This document shows, in pieces, positions 6,917 to 12,905 of a stretch of 64,000 bases of DNA (the stretch's first letter is position 1; every line of letters begins with the position of its first letter). Both the position numbers and the translations under genes were made by a program. Where the stretch lies: positions 1 through 64,000 of the IMG/VR virus record IMGVR_UViG_3300009787_000007; one strand, 5' to 3'. Below the pieces are notes generated by a model. It was not told the origin of the DNA and ran no database searches. It saw nothing but the letters and a program-made list of their open reading frames with translations. Source of the DNA: a virus (lineage: Duplodnaviria > Caudoviricetes).

Positions 6917-8746
6917 TTATTCTGCACAAGCAGCACAATATTCTGTATTAGATATAGAGCAGGAAGCTGAATTAGTATCAGGAATAGTAATATTATCTTG
7001 AGGTAGACCTACAGATTCCAAGAGATATTTATTAAAAGCTTGCATTAGATTAGATTCAGTTTCAGTTAGAGGTTTAGATTGAGTTTCATCATCTTTTACT
7101 AAGTCTAATCTAAAGAAGTTATCATCATGGATTAAACCTACTGATAATCCAGCATTAATATTAGATTTATCATTAAATGCTTGATCAACCATCATACGAT
7201 AGTAAGTAGTAAGTATAGGACTATTTAACCAATCTTTAAACCAATCTATATCTACATCACATTGACTCCAGATATTGAATGAAATACAATGTGCTTTACC
7301 ACTACTATTCATTAATAATTGCCATGCTTTAACTAGTTTGTAATATACATCCCAACCTACTTGTTCAGCAGTTTCAATGTCAAAAGGATATTGATATTCA
7401 ACTGTACTAGAATCTGTTTCATTTACAGCACCTTTAATCTCAGAATCTCTTGTAATTCTCTTAGTTTCAGGATGACATATAGGTGGTGATATCTCAGGAC
7501 TAGTAGTATATCCATATTTATCTTTAGCTCTAAATGCAGTTGATACTGTTGGAGCAATAGCTACCATTCTATCCATTTTATAACTATCACCAATCTTACC
7601 TACAGCTATCATAGCTTTATGTAATTTTCTACATAGTCTTAGCTCTTTCATTCCATAGGATTTATTAAGAGATTTAATATGCTTATAAATCCTAGCTAAA
7701 TTATTCTTACTATAAGGTTCTAATAATGTAAACCAGTCATATAAAGCATCTGCAAAGTTTTTATAACTAATCTTTAACTCAGATAGTAAATTACCTAATC
7801 CTATTACTCCTAATCCTACTTGTCTATCTTCTCTAGGATTTAAATAGTTACTATTACCTACTCCAGTAATACTATGTAATCTACATAGAAATTTAGCTCC
7901 ATTACTGAATGCTCTAATGATACTATTATAACTACATTTACCTAAATTAATAGGAGTAAGTAAACATGTACCTCTACTATATAACTGTACTTCCATACAT
8001 AGTTGCGTATATAGTCTATATTTATATATGTCATTACTATCTGGAGGATAATTTACTTGTTTATTAGTTACAGGATCAAGCCATCTTTTTTTAGATAGCC
8101 ATAGAGTTCCATTTCTTACAGCTTCTAAGATTTTATCTAGATAAGGATTATTAAGGATATAATCTTTACTATTTGGATTATCATCGATATACAATGCTCT
8201 TTTTAACCAAGGTATTCTACTTACATCCATATTAATAAAGCCAGTAGTAAAAGCATTTTCTCTAGTTGGTTCAATATATAATTCAGGATGTTCAGCGTCT
8301 ATATAAGCTGAAATTCCACCTTTCTTATATCTAATTCCACCTCTACGTAATACTTCATTCTGTTTAGAGTAAAATTCCATGAATGAACATACACCTGAAG
8401 ATACTAATCCTTTACCATTATCATTACCTATAGGTCTTAGTTTACCTAGATATAATGAAACTCCTGCTCCATATCTTAAAGCTTTAGATGTAAATAACCA
8501 TGATTCTTCAATACCATCTTTACCTTCCATAGAATCTTCTACCACCATCATAGTACATGATACTGGATATCTAGATTCAGGATTAGCTAACCAATTTAGT
8601 ATCCTTCCTACTACTTCTATCTCAGGATTAGCTTTTAATAACTCTAATAACTCTGACTTAACTTTCTCTATCTTAGATTGTTTAGTAATCCACTTACTTC
8701 TACTTCTTCTAGGTTTATTAACAGTAATTATTTGTTTTCTAGACAT
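6917..8746 (-). CDS. nrdA: ribonucleotide reductase large (alpha) subunit, cyanophage P60/P-SSP7 type class I
   Basis: SRYPVSCT, EDSMEG, GAGV, LRRGG, (Q)LCMEV active-site loop, RQVGLG, IAPT, TYY tyrosine pair, C-terminal CAAC. Confidence 0.92.
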   Translation of the reverse strand: MSRKQIITVNKPRRSRSKWITKQSKIEKVKSELLELLKANPEIEVVGRILNWLANPESRYPVSCTMMVVEDSMEGKDGIEESWLFTSKALRYGAGVSLYLGKLRPIGNDNGKGLVSSGVCSFMEFYSKQNEVLRRGGIRYKKGGISAYIDAEHPELYIEPTRENAFTTGFINMDVSRIPWLKRALYIDDNPNSKDYILNNPYLDKILEAVRNGTLWLSKKRWLDPVTNKQVNYPPDSNDIYKYRLYTQLCMEVQLYSRGTCLLTPINLGKCSYNSIIRAFSNGAKFLCRLHSITGVGNSNYLNPREDRQVGLGVIGLGNLLSELKISYKNFADALYDWFTLLEPYSKNNLARIYKHIKSLNKSYGMKELRLCRKLHKAMIAVGKIGDSYKMDRMVAIAPTVSTAFRAKDKYGYTTSPEISPPICHPETKRITRDSEIKGAVNETDSSTVEYQYPFDIETAEQVGWDVYYKLVKAWQLLMNSSGKAHCISFNIWSQCDVDIDWFKDWLNSPILTTYYRMMVDQAFNDKSNINAGLSVGLIHDDNFFRLDLVKDDETQSKPLTETESNLMQAFNKYLLESVGLPQDNITIPDTNSASCSISNTEYCAACAE

Positions 8747-9179: not shown

Positions 9180-9244
9180 TACTATATAAGTACAACTTCT
9201 AATTTCTAGGAGAGATTGGAGTAAAAAATCACCTTATAGAAAGT

Positions 9245-9802
9245 ATGGCAGATATAAAAACTAAATTTAATCAGATAGTAAGGAGATTAAATTATAATCA
9301 GATAACGGTATTAGATATAGATGCAGCTAAGATAGAATCCTGGTCATATAAGAATATACCTGATGTTGTAAGTCAATTAGAAACATTAGGATGGAATTTA
9401 GATAATGATAATACATGGGAAGAAACTATATTTTTAAATAGTATTATTAAATGGTATGGAAATAGAATAGGATTGTATATAACATCATCTTATTTAGATT
9501 ATAAATTAGCTTATTCTTTATTAGATACTATAGAATTTTCTAACTTAAGAAAGGATTTTGATCTTTCTAATCATACTGTATTATTATTAGATCCTATAAT
9601 TCTTATAGATTGTGAGGATTTAGATAGTATATATAATAATTTAGACTTTACTAAACATTATGGTTATATAGATTATAGTCATTATGATGATAAAGAACAA
9701 TTATATAAAGATTATCTAGATGAATGGAATTGGTTACAAGCTGAAGATCAAGATGATACAATATGGACAGCTAGACAAATTAATAAAGTATTAGCAAACT
9801 AA
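9245..9802 (+). CDS. hypothetical acidic early protein
   Basis: 185-aa ORF, first gene behind the consensus promoter. Confidence 0.7.
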   Translation: MADIKTKFNQIVRRLNYNQITVLDIDAAKIESWSYKNIPDVVSQLETLGWNLDNDNTWEETIFLNSIIKWYGNRIGLYITSSYLDYKLAYSLLDTIEFSNLRKDFDLSNHTVLLLDPIILIDCEDLDSIYNNLDFTKHYGYIDYSHYDDKEQLYKDYLDEWNWLQAEDQDDTIWTARQINKVLAN

Positions 9803-9819
9803 AGTCATAAGAAATACAC

Positions 9820-10251
9820 ATGAAGTACACAAGAGCATTAAAACATAGTGATTATAAACTTAGCTTAGATCAAGTTAAAGCTAAACAACCTAATACTAAT
9901 GTAATAAATATAGAAACTACTAAGTTAGAAGCTGAATATTATGCTAATAGAGATATTACAGTAATTAATTTAGATAAAGAAATTATAGCTATAGATAACA
10001 CTTTAGCTACTATAGATAGTCTTAAGCGTTTAGAGAAGAGTCTAAAAGCTAGAAAGAAGACATTAGTTAAATGTAAGAGTGAATTAGACAGTTTAAATAT
10101 AGAGAAAGAAGAAGATAAAATAGACTTTACAGTTAACACACTATCTGATATAGTAGAATTAGATAATTCAGAGTTAGAAAAGATTAAATCTTATACTAGT
10201 TCTGGAATTGAGATAGATATGCAGACTAGAATTAACAATGAATTTAAGTAA
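9820..10251 (+). CDS. hypothetical coiled-coil protein
   Basis: 143-aa ORF with a heptad-like central helix (IIAIDNTLATIDSLKRLEKSLKARKKTL). Confidence 0.65.
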   Translation: MKYTRALKHSDYKLSLDQVKAKQPNTNVINIETTKLEAEYYANRDITVINLDKEIIAIDNTLATIDSLKRLEKSLKARKKTLVKCKSELDSLNIEKEEDKIDFTVNTLSDIVELDNSELEKIKSYTSSGIEIDMQTRINNEFK

Positions 10252-11005
10252 AGAGCAATTAGAGCTTAAAGATAAGCTAGTTAAAGAATTAACAATGGAG
10301 TACAAAGGTATGTATGATAGTGCGATTTTAGATAATTTTTATAGTAAATATATTTATCCTAATGGAGTTCCTAAATTACCTATTGAGAAAGGTGGTTTAT
10401 TTGACTATGAAGGATATAGAAATGCTACTAAACCAGAGCAGTATAATACATTTAATTATAATGCTAGTAGAACTAATAATGAGATAGTTAATAGTTTATT
10501 AGAATTATTAAAGGATAAGAACAATGTAGATAATCAGGCTGAGAAGTTAAAAGCAGAAGTAGCTAAAGCTAATTCAATTCCTACTAAACCTAGAGTTGGT
10601 TGTTCAATTCCTAGTAACTTTCCTGTAAAAGAGGTAAAATTAACTGAAGATGAATATAGATTACCTAGAGTTGGTTCTTCAACTAATGATGAATCTAATA
10701 TTTATACTGAATTAGACAGTGAGAAAGTATTAACATTCATTGCAATACTTCCTGGTTTAGCTAAAGATACATTATTAGCTACATTTGAATATGGAGTATT
10801 TAATTTTTATGCTCAATATACTATATTAGATAGTGATACTAAGTTTGAAGTAGCTGATTTAAAATTCACATGGAATGTTAGTGATGAATTAGAGGTAGAT
10901 ATTTCTAAACCTATCTTAACTGACTATACTAATGGTATTTTAACTATTAATCTACCTCTAAAACAAAAGTGTATTTCTAAAAAAGTAGAAATTAAATTAA
11001 ATTAA
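10238..11005 (+). CDS. protein with C-terminal alpha-crystallin/Hsp20 domain
   Basis: C-terminal ILPGLAKDTL...DYTNGILTINLP...KKVEIKLN matches small heat-shock protein motifs; the N-terminal ~150 aa are unassigned. Confidence 0.7.
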   Translation: MNLSKEQLELKDKLVKELTMEYKGMYDSAILDNFYSKYIYPNGVPKLPIEKGGLFDYEGYRNATKPEQYNTFNYNASRTNNEIVNSLLELLKDKNNVDNQAEKLKAEVAKANSIPTKPRVGCSIPSNFPVKEVKLTEDEYRLPRVGSSTNDESNIYTELDSEKVLTFIAILPGLAKDTLLATFEYGVFNFYAQYTILDSDTKFEVADLKFTWNVSDELEVDISKPILTDYTNGILTINLPLKQKCISKKVEIKLN

Positions 11006-11102
11006 CTATAAGTTATATCTAAATTAATTTATATGTTAATATAAAGATAGTTAGTATTATCGTAATATATATATATATATATAAAGATGTACTAGCTTTC
11101 AT

Positions 11103-11175
11103 GCCAGAGGAGAGAAATGGTTTAAATAGCTGGTTCATACCCAGAAGACAGTTGGTTCGATTCCAACCTCTGACA
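11103..11175 (+). tRNA. tRNA-Met(CAT), elongator-like, with degenerate D-stem and no encoded CCA
   Basis: Acceptor GCCAGAG/CTCTGAC (one mismatch); anticodon arm CTGG-TTCATAC-CCAG; T-arm GTTGG-TTCGATT-CCAAC; 73 nt. Confidence 0.8.
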
Positions 11176-11209
11176 TTAGATTACATTATATAAACAAAGG
11201 ATTAAGTAA

Positions 11210-12196
11210 ATGAAGACTATTTATTTAGGTGGTTCTATTGCTGGAATTAGTTATGATCAAGCTACGATATGGAGGAATAGAGTTAGAAAATTACTAACTA
11301 AAGACTTTCAAGTATTTCAAATACTAGATCCAATGAGAGATAAAGAACATTTAAGTGATATAGAATTATTGGATATTGATCATACTACTAGACCTGAAGA
11401 TATATTTAATAGAGATATGTCAGATATAGATAAGTCAGATATAATTCTATGTAATCTAATGACTAAATCTTTAGGTTCACTATTTGAAAATGGATATGCT
11501 TATGCTAAACATAAACCTGTAATATTAGTCATAGATGAAGATTATATAGGTCATCCTTTCTTAATGACACCTAGTAGATACGTCACTACAGATATAGATA
11601 AAGCAGTAATGTATATAAATACTAACTTAAGAGGTATAGTAGATAGAAGTGTATATATAAACTTTATTAATCAAGTACAGATAAATCAAAGACATTATAA
11701 ACTAGAAAAAGATAATTTATTTAAGACATTCAAAGCTGGATTAGCAGAAGAAGTAGCAGAATATATAGAAGCTAAAGAAACATTTACTTATTCTAAAACT
11801 AGTAATAATTTGAATAATTTATTACTAGAAATAGGTGATGTATTTACATATTTAATATTGCTAATAAATGTAGAAACTAATAAGAATAAAACATTTTTAA
11901 ATATACTAACAAAAGCTGAAGTTAGGTATGCAGAACTAAAAAAAATAATTCAGAATAACTATCGTAATATAGATATTCATGATCATGTAAACAAAGCTAG
12001 TTTAATCGTTAATGCTTACCTTAAAAGAGTATTTAGAAACGATAAACTTAGTCCTGAAAGAACATTAATCTCAACTTATACTGAAGCACTAGCTCATATA
12101 TTATTAGCTTGTGATAACCTAAATACTCCTCTAGAATATCTTATGCAACTAAATAGAGAAAAGATTAATAAACGTTTTAGTATAAAACCTAAATAA
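11210..12196 (+). CDS. nucleoside 2-deoxyribosyltransferase/N-glycosidase (NDT/DNPH1-like) fused to a MazG-like NTP pyrophosphatase
   Basis: N-terminal IYLGG, IFNRDMSDIDKSD, GSLFENGYAYAKHKPV; C-terminal LAEEVAEY and LEIGDV, ending LMQLNREKINKRF. Confidence 0.85.
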   Translation: MKTIYLGGSIAGISYDQATIWRNRVRKLLTKDFQVFQILDPMRDKEHLSDIELLDIDHTTRPEDIFNRDMSDIDKSDIILCNLMTKSLGSLFENGYAYAKHKPVILVIDEDYIGHPFLMTPSRYVTTDIDKAVMYINTNLRGIVDRSVYINFINQVQINQRHYKLEKDNLFKTFKAGLAEEVAEYIEAKETFTYSKTSNNLNNLLLEIGDVFTYLILLINVETNKNKTFLNILTKAEVRYAELKKIIQNNYRNIDIHDHVNKASLIVNAYLKRVFRNDKLSPERTLISTYTEALAHILLACDNLNTPLEYLMQLNREKINKRFSIKPK

Positions 12197-12325
12197 TTTA
12201 ATTCATTTATATAAAGATATATATATCTATAATATATCTTAGCTAGTATTTACTTTACCTTTTTAAGCGGTTCAAAGTAAATATTAGTAGATATTAATTC
12301 ATTTAAGCATCCCTAGAGTAACAGA

Positions 12326-12871
12326 TTGAATAAGGTAAATAGTAGATATATGAATACTATCAGTGTAATTAATGGTTACAGTTTAAATTGGAAATTAGGA
12401 TTAGAAGAATATAAATATGGATTTATATTTTATAAAGCTTCTAAGAGTGCTAATAGAGATTGTGATTTATATAGATTATATATAGGTAGAACATTTAGTT
12501 TTTACAATTTAGAAGCTTCTATATTACATAATCCATATAAATTAGATTATGAGAAAGATAGAAAGGATGTAATAGATAAATTTATCAATAGATTTAACAA
12601 GAGAATGGAGAAGAAAGGAGCATTTAGAACTTTAATTAGAGTATTAGTTAAGTTAATGTTACTAGGTGCTGATATTGAATTAGCTTGTTTCTGTAAACCT
12701 AAAGATTGTCATGGAGATCATATAGCTAGTCAAGTTAGTTATTATTACATTCAATGTTATAAACTATTACAAACTAAATTAGGTAATGCTAGTCATATAG
12801 GTTTAGCTCAATTACATCAATTAATAGATGAAATATTAACTAAATATATTGATGAACCTATAGATTACTGA
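12326..12871 (+). CDS. DUF4326-like protein
   Basis: YIGR...LHNPY...RKDVIDKF...LACFCKPKDCHGDHI signature. The start could be the TTG at 12326 or the ATG at 12350. Confidence 0.8.
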   Translation: MNKVNSRYMNTISVINGYSLNWKLGLEEYKYGFIFYKASKSANRDCDLYRLYIGRTFSFYNLEASILHNPYKLDYEKDRKDVIDKFINRFNKRMEKKGAFRTLIRVLVKLMLLGADIELACFCKPKDCHGDHIASQVSYYYIQCYKLLQTKLGNASHIGLAQLHQLIDEILTKYIDEPIDY

Positions 12872-12905
12872 TTTTACAATTACTTTGTTTTTACAATGAT
12901 TCTAA

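What the first reader, a model, noticed from the sequence alone, without database searches (positions are those of the whole stretch)
11210..12196. N-glycosidase (NDT/DNPH1-like) fused to MazG: a two-step nucleotide-destroying enzyme?
Seen: the NDT-fold catalytic set (Tyr in IYLGG, Asp in NRD, nucleophile Glu in GSLFENG) is joined to a MazG EExxE...ExxD module plus a second, degenerate MazG-like half. Established: MazG-fold enzymes turn NTPs into NMPs, and DNPH1/MilB-type NDT enzymes cleave (modified) NMPs into base plus sugar phosphate. Inference: the fusion could channel one triphosphate to irreversible destruction. Candidate targets are a modified or damaged dNTP, (p)ppGpp, or a nucleotide immune signal such as dITP. 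That would make it an anti-defence or pool-shaping enzyme in a promoter-proximal accessory operon.
Basis: partly seen in the sequence, partly recalled or inferred. Interest (0 to 1): 0.7.

Follow-up and report, generated by a model that had tools for sequence, protein, structure and literature searches.

The report
Phage glycosidase–pyrophosphatase nucleotide-destroying fusion enzyme
An uncultured moss-associated phage encodes one protein that joins a DNPH1-like nucleotide base-removing domain to a MazG/dimeric-dUTPase-like triphosphate-cleaving domain. It probably degrades an unwanted DNA building block in two steps, but the target nucleotide and any anti-defence role are unknown.

Summary
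The ORF at 11210-12196 (+, 328 aa) is real and has two domains. Residues 1-142 have the nucleoside-2-deoxyribosyltransferase fold (Pfam E 6e-11; Z 13-16 to NDT, MilB and DNPH1). They carry Tyr5, Asp69, Glu93 and the DNPH1-type phosphate-binding Ser87. Residues 143-328 are one all-alpha NTP-pyrophosphatase domain. It passes the MazG Pfam cut-off, keeps EExxE-22-ExxD intact, and folds like dimeric dUTPases (Z 12.0 and 10.9). The "second degenerate MazG half" is therefore not a separate unit.

The fusion occurs only three times among 1.84 billion representatives, all in one syntenic phage lineage. In each it is followed by a DUF4326 gene and preceded by a tRNA gene. One ortholog has Ala at the Asp69 position.

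Stand-alone relatives of the N-domain are mostly viral. In 14 phage loci they lie directly beside dNMP kinase genes (4 loci) or NTP-diphosphohydrolase genes (2-3 loci). This fits action at the dNMP level.

Best reading, at about 0.5: (d)NTP is cut to dNMP plus PPi, then dNMP to base plus deoxyribose 5-phosphate, as pool sanitation or pool shaping. Channelling, the target and anti-defence are untested.

This scan has noted independent DNPH1-like/MazG and DNPH1-like/Nudix fusions on other DNA. I rate it a new variant of a known kind, of moderate interest.

The parts
11103..11175 (+). tRNA gene (anticodon loop reads CAU, Met-type) directly upstream of the fusion gene
   Evidence: Rfam RF00005 scores 34.3 bits against a gathering score of 29. 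ARAGORN does not call it. Relatives have a tRNA at the same place: L020 2359-2431, and L021 tRNA-Met 7721-7793 plus tRNA-Tyr.
11210..12196 (+). Fusion gene, 328 aa: DNPH1/NDT-like N-glycosidase domain plus all-alpha NTP pyrophosphatase domain
   Evidence: ORF list; Pfam; AF2 model pLDDT 90.8; two full-length orthologs, P0002 at 47% and P0003 at 34% identity.
11210..11635 (+). N-domain, residues 1-142, nucleoside 2-deoxyribosyltransferase fold. Tyr5 is at 11222-11224, Asp69 at 11414-11416, Ser87 at 11468-11470 and Glu93 at 11486-11488.
   Evidence: PF05014 E 6e-11. Z 15.9 to 7m5h, 15.0 to NDT 7o62, 13.9 to MilB, 13.8 to DNPH1. In the family alignment A3, Y5 and E93 are in 106/106, D69 in 104/106, and S87 in 82/106 and never Asp.
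11636..12193 (+). C-domain, residues 143-328, MazG / dimeric-dUTPase-like all-alpha NTP pyrophosphatase. EExxE is at 11747-11761 and ExxD at 11828-11839. Conserved basic residues are R252, K272, R273, R276, K318 and R322.
   Evidence: PF03819 scores 24.3 bits against a cut-off of 22. 5myd_A Z 12.0 and 1w2y_A Z 10.9 span 143-328. E180, E181, E184, E187, E207 and D210 are invariant in all three orthologs.
12350..12871 (+). DUF4326 gene (rhodanese-phosphatase-like). The start is probably the ATG at 12350, not the TTG at 12326. It is the conserved downstream neighbour of the fusion gene.
   Evidence: PF14216 E 2.9e-12. It occupies the same position in L020 and L021. Alignment A5 shows orthologs starting at M9 and an invariant C-x-C-x-P-x-x-CHGD motif.

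Best explanation
The gene encodes a bifunctional nucleotide-catabolic enzyme of the phage's replication and nucleotide-metabolism module.

Step 1 (inferred from family membership): the C-terminal all-alpha domain binds Mg2+ through E180/E181/E184 and E207/D210. It hydrolyses a (deoxy)nucleoside triphosphate, perhaps also a diphosphate, to the monophosphate plus pyrophosphate. MazG enzymes and dimeric dUTPases do this.

Step 2 (inferred): the N-terminal DNPH1-like domain binds the 5'-phosphate with Ser87. It accepts a 2'-deoxyribose (Tyr5) and protonates the leaving base with Asp69. Glu93 forms a covalent deoxyribosyl-5-phosphate ester that water then resolves, releasing free base plus deoxyribose 5-phosphate.

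The net effect is irreversible removal of one kind of dNTP/dNMP from the pool, that is, sanitation or composition shaping. The downstream DUF4326 protein may process the sugar phosphate. The substrate base is not known.
For: Domain identities: Pfam, PHROG; model; fold matches.

DNPH1-type markers: the alignment to rat Rcl places Y5, D69, S87 and E93 on Rcl Y13, D69, S87 and E93, with identical D-to-E and S-to-E spacing. PMC10603095 assigns these residues the roles of deoxy marker, acid/base, phosphate binder and nucleophile. It also states that true NDTs lack the phosphate pocket. Position 87 is never Asp, the NDT state, in 106 relatives.

Metal motif: EExxE-22-ExxD is invariant in three orthologs that are only 25-38% identical in this domain.

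Independent genomic linkage: stand-alone N-domain relatives are directly followed by a dATP/dGTP-diphosphohydrolase-type gene in L010 and L019, and by a weak MazG match in L017 next to ThyA. They are directly adjacent to dNMP kinase genes in L001, L004, L009 and L011.

Literature: LOG/SLOG-type NMP N-glycosidases are repeatedly fused to DUF4326 (PMC9503650; bioRxiv 10.1101/2025.06.06.658234).
Against: No biochemical data exist for any member of this N-domain family or of this C-domain type.

The closest ortholog, P0002, has Ala (GCT) at the Asp69 position. Either the chemistry tolerates this, or that copy is impaired, or it is an assembly error.

Fold scores do not separate hydrolases (DNPH1, MilB) from transferases (NDT). 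All tie at Z 12-16.

The second DNPH1 phosphate ligand (S128' from the partner subunit) has no demonstrable counterpart here.

The three fusion loci are syntenic relatives, so the conserved DUF4326 adjacency may reflect shared ancestry only. DUF4326 is not adjacent to stand-alone relatives.

The Z of 12 for a helical domain lies in the range where the tool warns of common arrangements. The sequence does not match PF08761.
Confidence: 0.5

Rival explanations
1. Constructive base exchange. The N-domain is a natural phosphodeoxyribosyltransferase that swaps the base on a dNMP supplied by the fused pyrophosphatase. One example would be converting surplus dGMP/dCMP into dAMP/dTMP for a 27% G+C genome. 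Another would be installing a non-canonical base. The product then goes to a dNMP kinase.
For: NDT-fold enzymes use the same covalent intermediate for transfer and for hydrolysis (PMC10603095). Direct adjacency to dNMP kinase genes in 4 of 14 loci suits a producer of dNMPs as well as a destroyer. A phage NDT with dA preference has been linked to diaminopurine genomes (bioRxiv 10.1101/2025.10.22.683976). The genome is 27% G+C.
Against: No base-synthesis or modification genes were found in the 86 kb held. ThyA, ThyX, PurZ and dUTPase are absent, and only structural and recombination families turned up. No dNMP kinase was found there either. No natural phosphodeoxyribosyltransferase is known to me (own knowledge). 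The only characterised dNMP-acting relatives hydrolyse.
Confidence: 0.13
2. Counter-defence. The enzyme removes a deoxynucleotide that a host immune system uses as a signal or signal precursor. The example is dITP/dAMP of Kongming-type systems. It would act as a functional analogue of T5 Dmp, but would cut the base off instead of the phosphate.
For: T5 Dmp defeats Kongming by depleting dAMP, and Dmp genes co-occur with phage dNMP kinases (bioRxiv 10.1101/2024.12.20.629578). Stand-alone relatives of the N-domain likewise sit next to dNMP kinase genes. A LOG-like predicted AMP phosphoribohydrolase (ORF83) is an anti-Avs protein whose viral homologs carry DUF4326. DUF4326 is tied to NAD/ADP-ribose conflict systems by comparative genomics.
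Against: No dNMP kinase was found in the held 59% of this genome. There are no PADLOC hits. The gene sits in the replication/nucleotide module between RNR and tRNA genes, not in an obvious anti-defence island. No host or defence system is known for this phage. All of this is analogy.
Confidence: 0.15
3. Two independent activities on one chain. The C-domain is the phage's housekeeping dUTPase or a general house-cleaning NTPase. The N-domain acts on an unrelated nucleotide or nucleoside. The fusion is a lineage-specific accident of gene order.
For: The best fold matches of the C-domain are dimeric dUTPases. No other dUTPase is present in the 86 kb held although an RNR is encoded. The fusion exists in only one lineage. 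In most other phages the N-domain stands alone.
Against: The fusion has been kept down to 34% identity with both motif sets. NTP-diphosphohydrolase genes recur directly beside stand-alone relatives in unrelated phages. The product and substrate classes match.
Confidence: 0.15
4. The N-domain is a non-catalytic nucleotide-binding or regulatory module for the pyrophosphatase.
For: P0002 lacks the general-acid Asp. Related SLOG/TIR-like folds serve as sensors (one search lists STING-TIR and TIR folds at Z about 10).
Against: The Glu93 nucleophile and Tyr5 are in 106/106 relatives and Asp69 in 104/106. The N-domain is more conserved than the C-domain, at 57.6% against 38.5%.
Confidence: 0.05

Closest known systems
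DNPH1 / Rcl (2'-deoxynucleoside 5'-phosphate N-hydrolase; hmdUMP hydrolase), PDB 8qhq, 4fyh, 2khz
   Same: Same fold (Z 13.8, rmsd 2.8-2.9 over about 130 residues). It has Tyr, Asp and the Glu nucleophile. It has the phosphate-binding Ser six residues before the Glu, with identical spacing.
   Different: Identity is only 15-18%. The Arg of the GSIRGG loop is Ala here. The partner-subunit Ser is not identifiable. There are family-specific invariant residues (W21, R22, P41, H115-P-F) of unknown role. It is fused to a pyrophosphatase. Its activity is untested.
Nucleoside 2'-deoxyribosyltransferases (PF05014; e.g. 7o62, 1f8x, 1s2d)
   Same: Pfam family membership (E 6e-11), the fold (Z up to 15.0) and the catalytic triad.
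   Different: NDTs have Asp where this protein has Ser87, and they lack a phosphate pocket (PMC10603095; own knowledge for Asp92 of L. leichmannii NDT). A nucleoside substrate is therefore less likely here.
MazG-type all-alpha NTP pyrophosphohydrolases (PF03819) and dimeric dUTPases (5myd, 1w2y)
   Same: The EExxE-(12-28)-ExxD metal motif. The Pfam MazG score is over the cut-off. The whole C-domain superposes on dimeric dUTPases (Z 12.0 and 10.9).
   Different: It is about 186 aa, against about 100 aa for a minimal MazG. There is no sequence match to PF08761. There are no close relatives outside the three orthologs. The base specificity is unknown.
Human DCTPP1 / DCTD / DNPH1 sanitation route and phage MazZ-PurZ type pathways
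   Same: The logic of an NTP pyrophosphatase supplying a dNMP to a dNMP-level enzyme.
   Different: There the enzymes are separate proteins. Here the pyrophosphatase and the N-glycosidase are one chain.
T5 Dmp (5'-deoxyribonucleotidase), an anti-Kongming factor
   Same: A phage enzyme that removes dNMPs and is genomically linked to dNMP kinases. Stand-alone relatives of the N-domain share that linkage.
   Different: It has an unrelated fold and a different chemistry, since it removes the phosphate and not the base. No defence phenotype is known for this family.

Membership tests
NDT superfamily (PF05014 / PF15891) | Profile match over the family's curated cut-off | tested here: met
   PF05014 scores 42.9 bits (cut-off 28.8) and PF15891 scores 40.2 bits (cut-off 30).
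NDT superfamily (PF05014 / PF15891) | Rossmann-like NDT fold | tested here: met
   The model has pLDDT 90.8. Z is 15.9 to 7m5h, 15.0 to 7o62, 13.9 to MilB and 13.8 to DNPH1.
NDT superfamily (PF05014 / PF15891) | Catalytic Glu nucleophile, general-acid Asp and active-site Tyr | tested here: met
   E93, D69 and Y5 align to Rcl E93, D69 and Y13. They are conserved in 106/106, 104/106 and 106/106 relatives. The ortholog P0002 has Ala at position 69.
DNPH1-type dNMP N-hydrolase | Phosphate-binding Ser six residues before the nucleophile, in place of the Asp of NDTs | tested here: met
   S87-x5-E93 matches S98-x5-E104 of human DNPH1. The position is S in 82, G in 10 and T in 5 of 106, and never D.
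DNPH1-type dNMP N-hydrolase | Second phosphate ligand from the partner subunit (S128' in human) and a homodimer | tested here: inconclusive
   No counterpart could be assigned from sequence.
DNPH1-type dNMP N-hydrolase | Hydrolysis of a 2'-deoxynucleoside 5'-monophosphate to base plus dR5P | not testable with these tools
   This needs an enzyme assay.
MazG / all-alpha NTP pyrophosphohydrolase (PF03819) | Profile match over the curated cut-off | tested here: met
   The C-domain alone scores 24.3 bits in the window protein and 26.0 in P0002, against a cut-off of 22. P0003 scores 17.2, below it.
MazG / all-alpha NTP pyrophosphohydrolase (PF03819) | EExxE-(12-28)-ExxD metal-binding motif | tested here: met
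   E180-E181-V-A-E184, then 22 residues, then E207-I-G-D210. All are invariant in the three orthologs.
MazG / all-alpha NTP pyrophosphohydrolase (PF03819) | NTP to NMP plus PPi activity | not testable with these tools
   This needs an enzyme assay.
Dimeric dUTPase (PF08761) | Sequence profile match | tested here: not met
   PF08761 gave no match in the genome at E <= 1 and none on the C-domains at E <= 10.
Dimeric dUTPase (PF08761) | Fold of the whole domain | tested here: met
   5myd_A: Z 12.0, rmsd 3.4, 148 residues aligned over 143-324. 1w2y_A: Z 10.9, 153 residues aligned over 144-328. These are the only matches to the C-domain among the top 50 rows. For helical domains this Z range calls for caution.
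Dimeric dUTPase (PF08761) | Uracil-specific binding residues | not tested
   Identity is 11-16% and no coordinates were available for inspection.
DUF4326 (PF14216), the downstream neighbour | Profile match and the conserved Cys/His motif | tested here: met
   E 2.9e-12, 47.5 bits against a cut-off of 25. C121, C123, P125, C128-H-G-D131 are invariant in the three orthologs.

The most novel reading that the evidence does not exclude
The mostly viral family of 140-150 aa NDT-like proteins, and this fusion as its most elaborate form, is a dNMP-destroying counter-defence or pool-control device. It would work like T5 Dmp but cleave the glycosidic bond. The fused pyrophosphatase would extend its reach to the triphosphate, for example the dITP immune signal or its dATP/dAMP precursors. 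DUF4326 would dispose of the deoxyribose phosphate. If so, phages would have a second, chemically distinct way to blind nucleotide-based immunity.
Probability: 0.15. Interest if true: 0.75.

Novelty: new variant of a known kind. Interest (0 to 1): 0.45.

Why it matters
If both domains act in series, this would be a natural single-chain route from a deoxynucleoside triphosphate to free base plus sugar phosphate. In human cells that job is spread over separate enzymes (DCTPP1 or dUTPase-type enzymes, then DNPH1). It would also give a biochemical handle on a large, mostly viral and wholly uncharacterised family of NDT-like proteins. These proteins sit next to phage dNMP kinases, and dNMP kinases are now known to trigger the Kongming defence. 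Knowing the substrate would show whether phages use base removal to sanitise their pools, to skew them, or to hide them from the host.

Tried and rejected
- A single-sequence AlphaFold2 model was useless (pLDDT 35). It was replaced by the alignment-based model.
- A profile of the C-domain found nothing among PDB sequences.
- Word-indexed searches with the C-domain, or with its alignment, found only the three orthologs plus one marginal 131-aa protein, P0151 (E 0.013).
- Scans of viral contigs and metagenome contigs with the C-domain profile found no relative.
- tblastn against 50,697 phage records found only two N-domain-only matches.
- NCBIfam and PADLOC gave no useful hit.
- ThyA, ThyX, adenylosuccinate synthetase/PurZ, trimeric dUTPase and dUTPase_2 were not found in the 86-kb record. 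The record is only 59% complete by CheckV, so their absence is not established.
- The longer N-domain relatives (P0008, P0010, P0090 and others) have no MazG motif in their extensions.
- Two ORFs that I read by eye as MazG-like (L017 5860-6462 and L007 11250-11675) gave no Pfam hit, so I do not count them.
- hhalign of the C-domain against the L017 MazG-like ORF was insignificant.
- The contexts of the closest stand-alone relatives (P0004, P0007, P0013) were uninformative ORFans.
- RNA-library contigs hold pieces of the locus (11117-11388 and 12627-12806), but most of the fusion gene has no cover. DNA carry-over cannot be excluded, so transcription is not shown.
- The Rhodanese-phosphatase superfamily paper on DUF4326 (doi 10.1093/nargab/lqad029) is not held.

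Full report
OBSERVATION

The window is a 27% G+C fragment of an uncultured tailed phage. It comes from an 86,345-bp IMG/VR record that CheckV rates 59% complete. The fragment encodes a DnaB-like helicase, a family-A DNA polymerase, a ribonucleotide reductase and a Mu-type portal. The polymerase is 43% identical to those of Pseudanabaena phages PA-SR01 and Pam2.

The flagged ORF, 11210-12196 (+), is open and encodes 328 aa. An AAGGA motif lies 8 nt upstream of its ATG.

Pfam assigns residues 4-110 to the nucleoside 2-deoxyribosyltransferase families: PF05014 at E 6e-11 and PF15891 at E 4.8e-10. It assigns residues 172-230 to MazG (PF03819) at E 1.2e-4. Scanned alone, the C-terminal 188 residues score 24.3 bits against the MazG cut-off of 22.

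STRUCTURE

A single-sequence model failed (pLDDT 35). A model built on an alignment of 106 relatives reached pLDDT 90.8 and pTM 0.79, with confident helices throughout the C-terminal half.

Residues 1-142 superpose on all branches of the NDT superfamily with tied scores:
- an E. faecalis protein (7m5h), Z 15.9
- YtoQ, Z 15.3
- true NDTs, up to Z 15.0
- MilB, Z 13.9
- DNPH1, Z 13.8

The fold alone therefore does not separate hydrolases from transferases.

Residues 143-328 superpose as one unit on the dimeric dUTPase of a staphylococcal phage (5myd_A: Z 12.0, rmsd 3.4, 148 residues). They also superpose on the Campylobacter dimeric dUTPase (1w2y_A: Z 10.9, 153 residues). These are the only matches to this half among the top 50 rows.

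In BFVD the same half aligns over 190-200 columns with viral MazG-like proteins of 195-225 aa from Tenacibaculum phage pT24 and Cellulophaga phage phiST. PHROG 173, an NTP pyrophosphohydrolase profile of 196 positions, weakly matches most of the domain in two orthologs. PHROG 229 matches the last helix. Language-model neighbours of the C-domain are viral MazG, PRA-PH and dUTPase_2 clusters of 169-201 aa, but at score 0.83 this is only a lead.

I conclude that the C-terminal part is one long all-alpha NTP-pyrophosphatase domain. It is not a MazG unit followed by a degenerate second unit. There is no sequence match to the dimeric-dUTPase Pfam family. The Z values lie in the range where the tool warns about helical bundles, so the assignment rests on the combination of the Pfam hit, the motif and the fold.

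ACTIVE SITES

HMMER's alignment to rat Rcl/DNPH1 puts Tyr5, Asp69, Ser87 and Glu93 on Rcl Tyr13, Asp69, Ser87 and Glu93. The Asp-Glu and Ser-Glu spacings are identical.

The DNPH1 structure paper (PMC10603095) assigns the human equivalents these roles:
- Y24 marks 2'-deoxy specificity, whereas MilB, which prefers ribose, has Phe.
- D80 is the acid/base.
- E104 is the nucleophile.
- S98 is a phosphate ligand.

The paper also states that true NDTs lack the phosphate pocket.

In 106 relatives, Tyr5 and Glu93 are invariant and Asp69 is present in 104. Position 87 is Ser in 82, Gly in 10 and Thr in 5, and never Asp. The family also has its own invariant residues (W21, R22, P41, H115-P-F) whose roles are unknown.

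This supports a 2'-deoxynucleoside 5'-phosphate as the ligand. It does not identify the base.

In the C-domain, E180, E181, E184, E187, E207 and D210 (EExxE, 22 residues, ExxD) are invariant in the three orthologs. So are the basic residues R252, K272, R273, R276, K318 and R322. This domain is only 25-38% identical between orthologs.

One inconsistency remains. The closest ortholog, P0002, has Ala (GCT for GAT) at the Asp69 position. Yet its N-domain is better conserved than its C-domain, at 57.6% against 38.5%. It is a single metagenomic contig, so the change may be an error, a variant with slowed chemistry, or a sign that invariant Asp72 can substitute.

DISTRIBUTION

An exhaustive HMMER search of 1.84 billion representatives gave 1418 hits. 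Only P0002 (47% identity, 323 aa) and P0003 (34% identity, 317 aa) are full length. The rest are stand-alone N-domain relatives of 140-150 aa, which are mostly viral by Atlas cluster labels.

JGI's pipeline had already labelled P0002 'nucleoside 2-deoxyribosyltransferase/NTP pyrophosphatase'. No further relatives of the C-domain were found in viral or metagenome contigs.

Both orthologs lie in syntenic phage contigs with the order helicase, PolA, RNR, small ORFs, tRNA, fusion gene, DUF4326, and then a convergent FN3 fibre gene. The fusion is therefore a single lineage-specific event that has been kept during long divergence. The conserved DUF4326 adjacency could simply be inherited.

NEIGHBOURHOOD SURVEY

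I looked at 14 non-redundant IMG/VR loci that hold stand-alone relatives.
- A gene of the dATP/dGTP-diphosphohydrolase type (PF18909) overlaps the stop codon of the NDT-like gene in L010 and L019. Neither record has a PurZ-like gene.
- In L017 the NDT-like gene is followed by a weak MazG match (E 3.8e-4), a thymidylate synthase and a SLOG-like gene.
- dNMP kinase genes (PF21448) are directly adjacent in L001, L004, L009 and L011, and 3 kb away in L017. L009 has two tandem NDT-like paralogs before the kinase.
- HD, NADAR and Nudix genes also occur nearby.

These phages differ widely in G+C (0.39-0.6), so the linkage is not one inherited arrangement. It places the family at the dNMP/dNTP node of phage nucleotide metabolism. 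It also provides independent 'split' versions of the pyrophosphatase-plus-glycosidase pairing. DUF4326 is present in two of these genomes but lies far from the NDT-like gene.

MECHANISM AND ROLE

The best-supported reading is a two-step degradation. The pyrophosphatase domain makes the monophosphate, and the DNPH1-like domain removes its base through a Glu93-linked intermediate. [quoted passage not shown] Amoeba-virus homologs of the LOG-like anti-Avs protein ORF83 also carry it. A role on the deoxyribose phosphate product is therefore plausible but untested.

The physiological purpose is open.
- Sanitation or pool shaping fits the location of the gene in the replication module.
- A counter-defence role is possible by analogy. 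T5 Dmp defeats Kongming by depleting dAMP, and Dmp genes co-occur with phage dNMP kinases.
- Constructive base exchange at the dNMP level cannot be excluded.

The 86 kb held contains no thymidylate synthase, PurZ, dUTPase, dNMP kinase or base-modification gene. However, 41% of the genome is missing.

OCCURRENCE IN SAMPLES

A moss metagenome of 2017 holds 99% of the sampled words and may be the source. A plant metagenome of 2025 holds 90%. The 2025 contig differs at 10 positions across 9200-12900, none of them inside the fusion gene.

Three metatranscriptome libraries from two studies hold small contigs of the locus. One spans the tRNA and the first 180 nt of the fusion gene. Since DNA carry-over cannot be excluded, this does not show transcription.

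EARLIER NOTES OF THIS SCAN

Word search found unrelated earlier cases on other DNA. They include a DNPH1-like/MazG fusion (e1-1076569), a DNPH1-like/Nudix fusion (e1-1556117) and operons of the same enzyme types. None shares sequence with this protein. I did not check these notes. If correct, they show that the pairing has arisen more than once. That lowers the novelty of the idea and raises the plausibility of coupling. One earlier case (e1-382498) found such neighbours to be independent, which is a caution.

VERDICT

I class it as a new variant of known enzyme kinds, of moderate interest.

Noticed in passing
window 11103-11175 (+): A tRNA gene with a CAU anticodon loop and a weak D-arm. Rfam finds it (34.3 bits) but ARAGORN misses it. 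Relatives have tRNA genes at the same place. L021 has tRNA-Met and tRNA-Tyr before the fusion gene and tRNA-Leu(TAA) between it and DUF4326.
   Followed up: partly
window 12326-12871 (+): The DUF4326 ORF is listed from a TTG at 12326. Both orthologs start at the position of the ATG at 12350 (MNTISVINGYS...), so the real start is probably 12350.
   Followed up: yes
L020 2461-3432 (P0002): The closest ortholog has Ala (GCT) instead of the general-acid Asp (GAT) of the NDT-like domain. The N-domain is nevertheless more conserved than the C-domain.
   Followed up: partly
L009 8016-10171: Two tandem paralogous NDT-like genes, followed by a dNMP kinase-like gene and preceded by a DNA polymerase, in a high-G+C phage contig.
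   Followed up: partly
L017 5860-9552: A compact nucleotide cluster: a 200-aa ORF with repeated E..E / E..D helices (no Pfam hit), an NDT-like gene, a weak MazG match, thymidylate synthase and a SLOG-like gene.
   Followed up: partly
window 10185-11138: Contigs from three metatranscriptome libraries (two studies) each cover most of the 255-aa orphan ORF 10238-11005. One runs on into the tRNA gene. The ORF has no family match.
   Followed up: no
window 11056-11093: A run of (TA)n lies between two copies of TATAAAGAT(A/G) just upstream of the tRNA, and a third copy follows the fusion gene at 12210. The decamer is not enriched over shuffles (5 found, 4.4 expected).
   Followed up: yes
window 9200-12900 in public runs: Near-identical DNA (10 differences in 3.7 kb) occurs in a moss metagenome of 2017 and a plant metagenome of 2025.
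   Followed up: partly
genome beyond the window or in the window's later part (member of alignment A6, position not resolved): One ORF carries a polynucleotide kinase 3'-phosphatase (PF08645) domain and another a T5orf172/MUG113 domain. I did not determine which ORFs these are.
   Followed up: no
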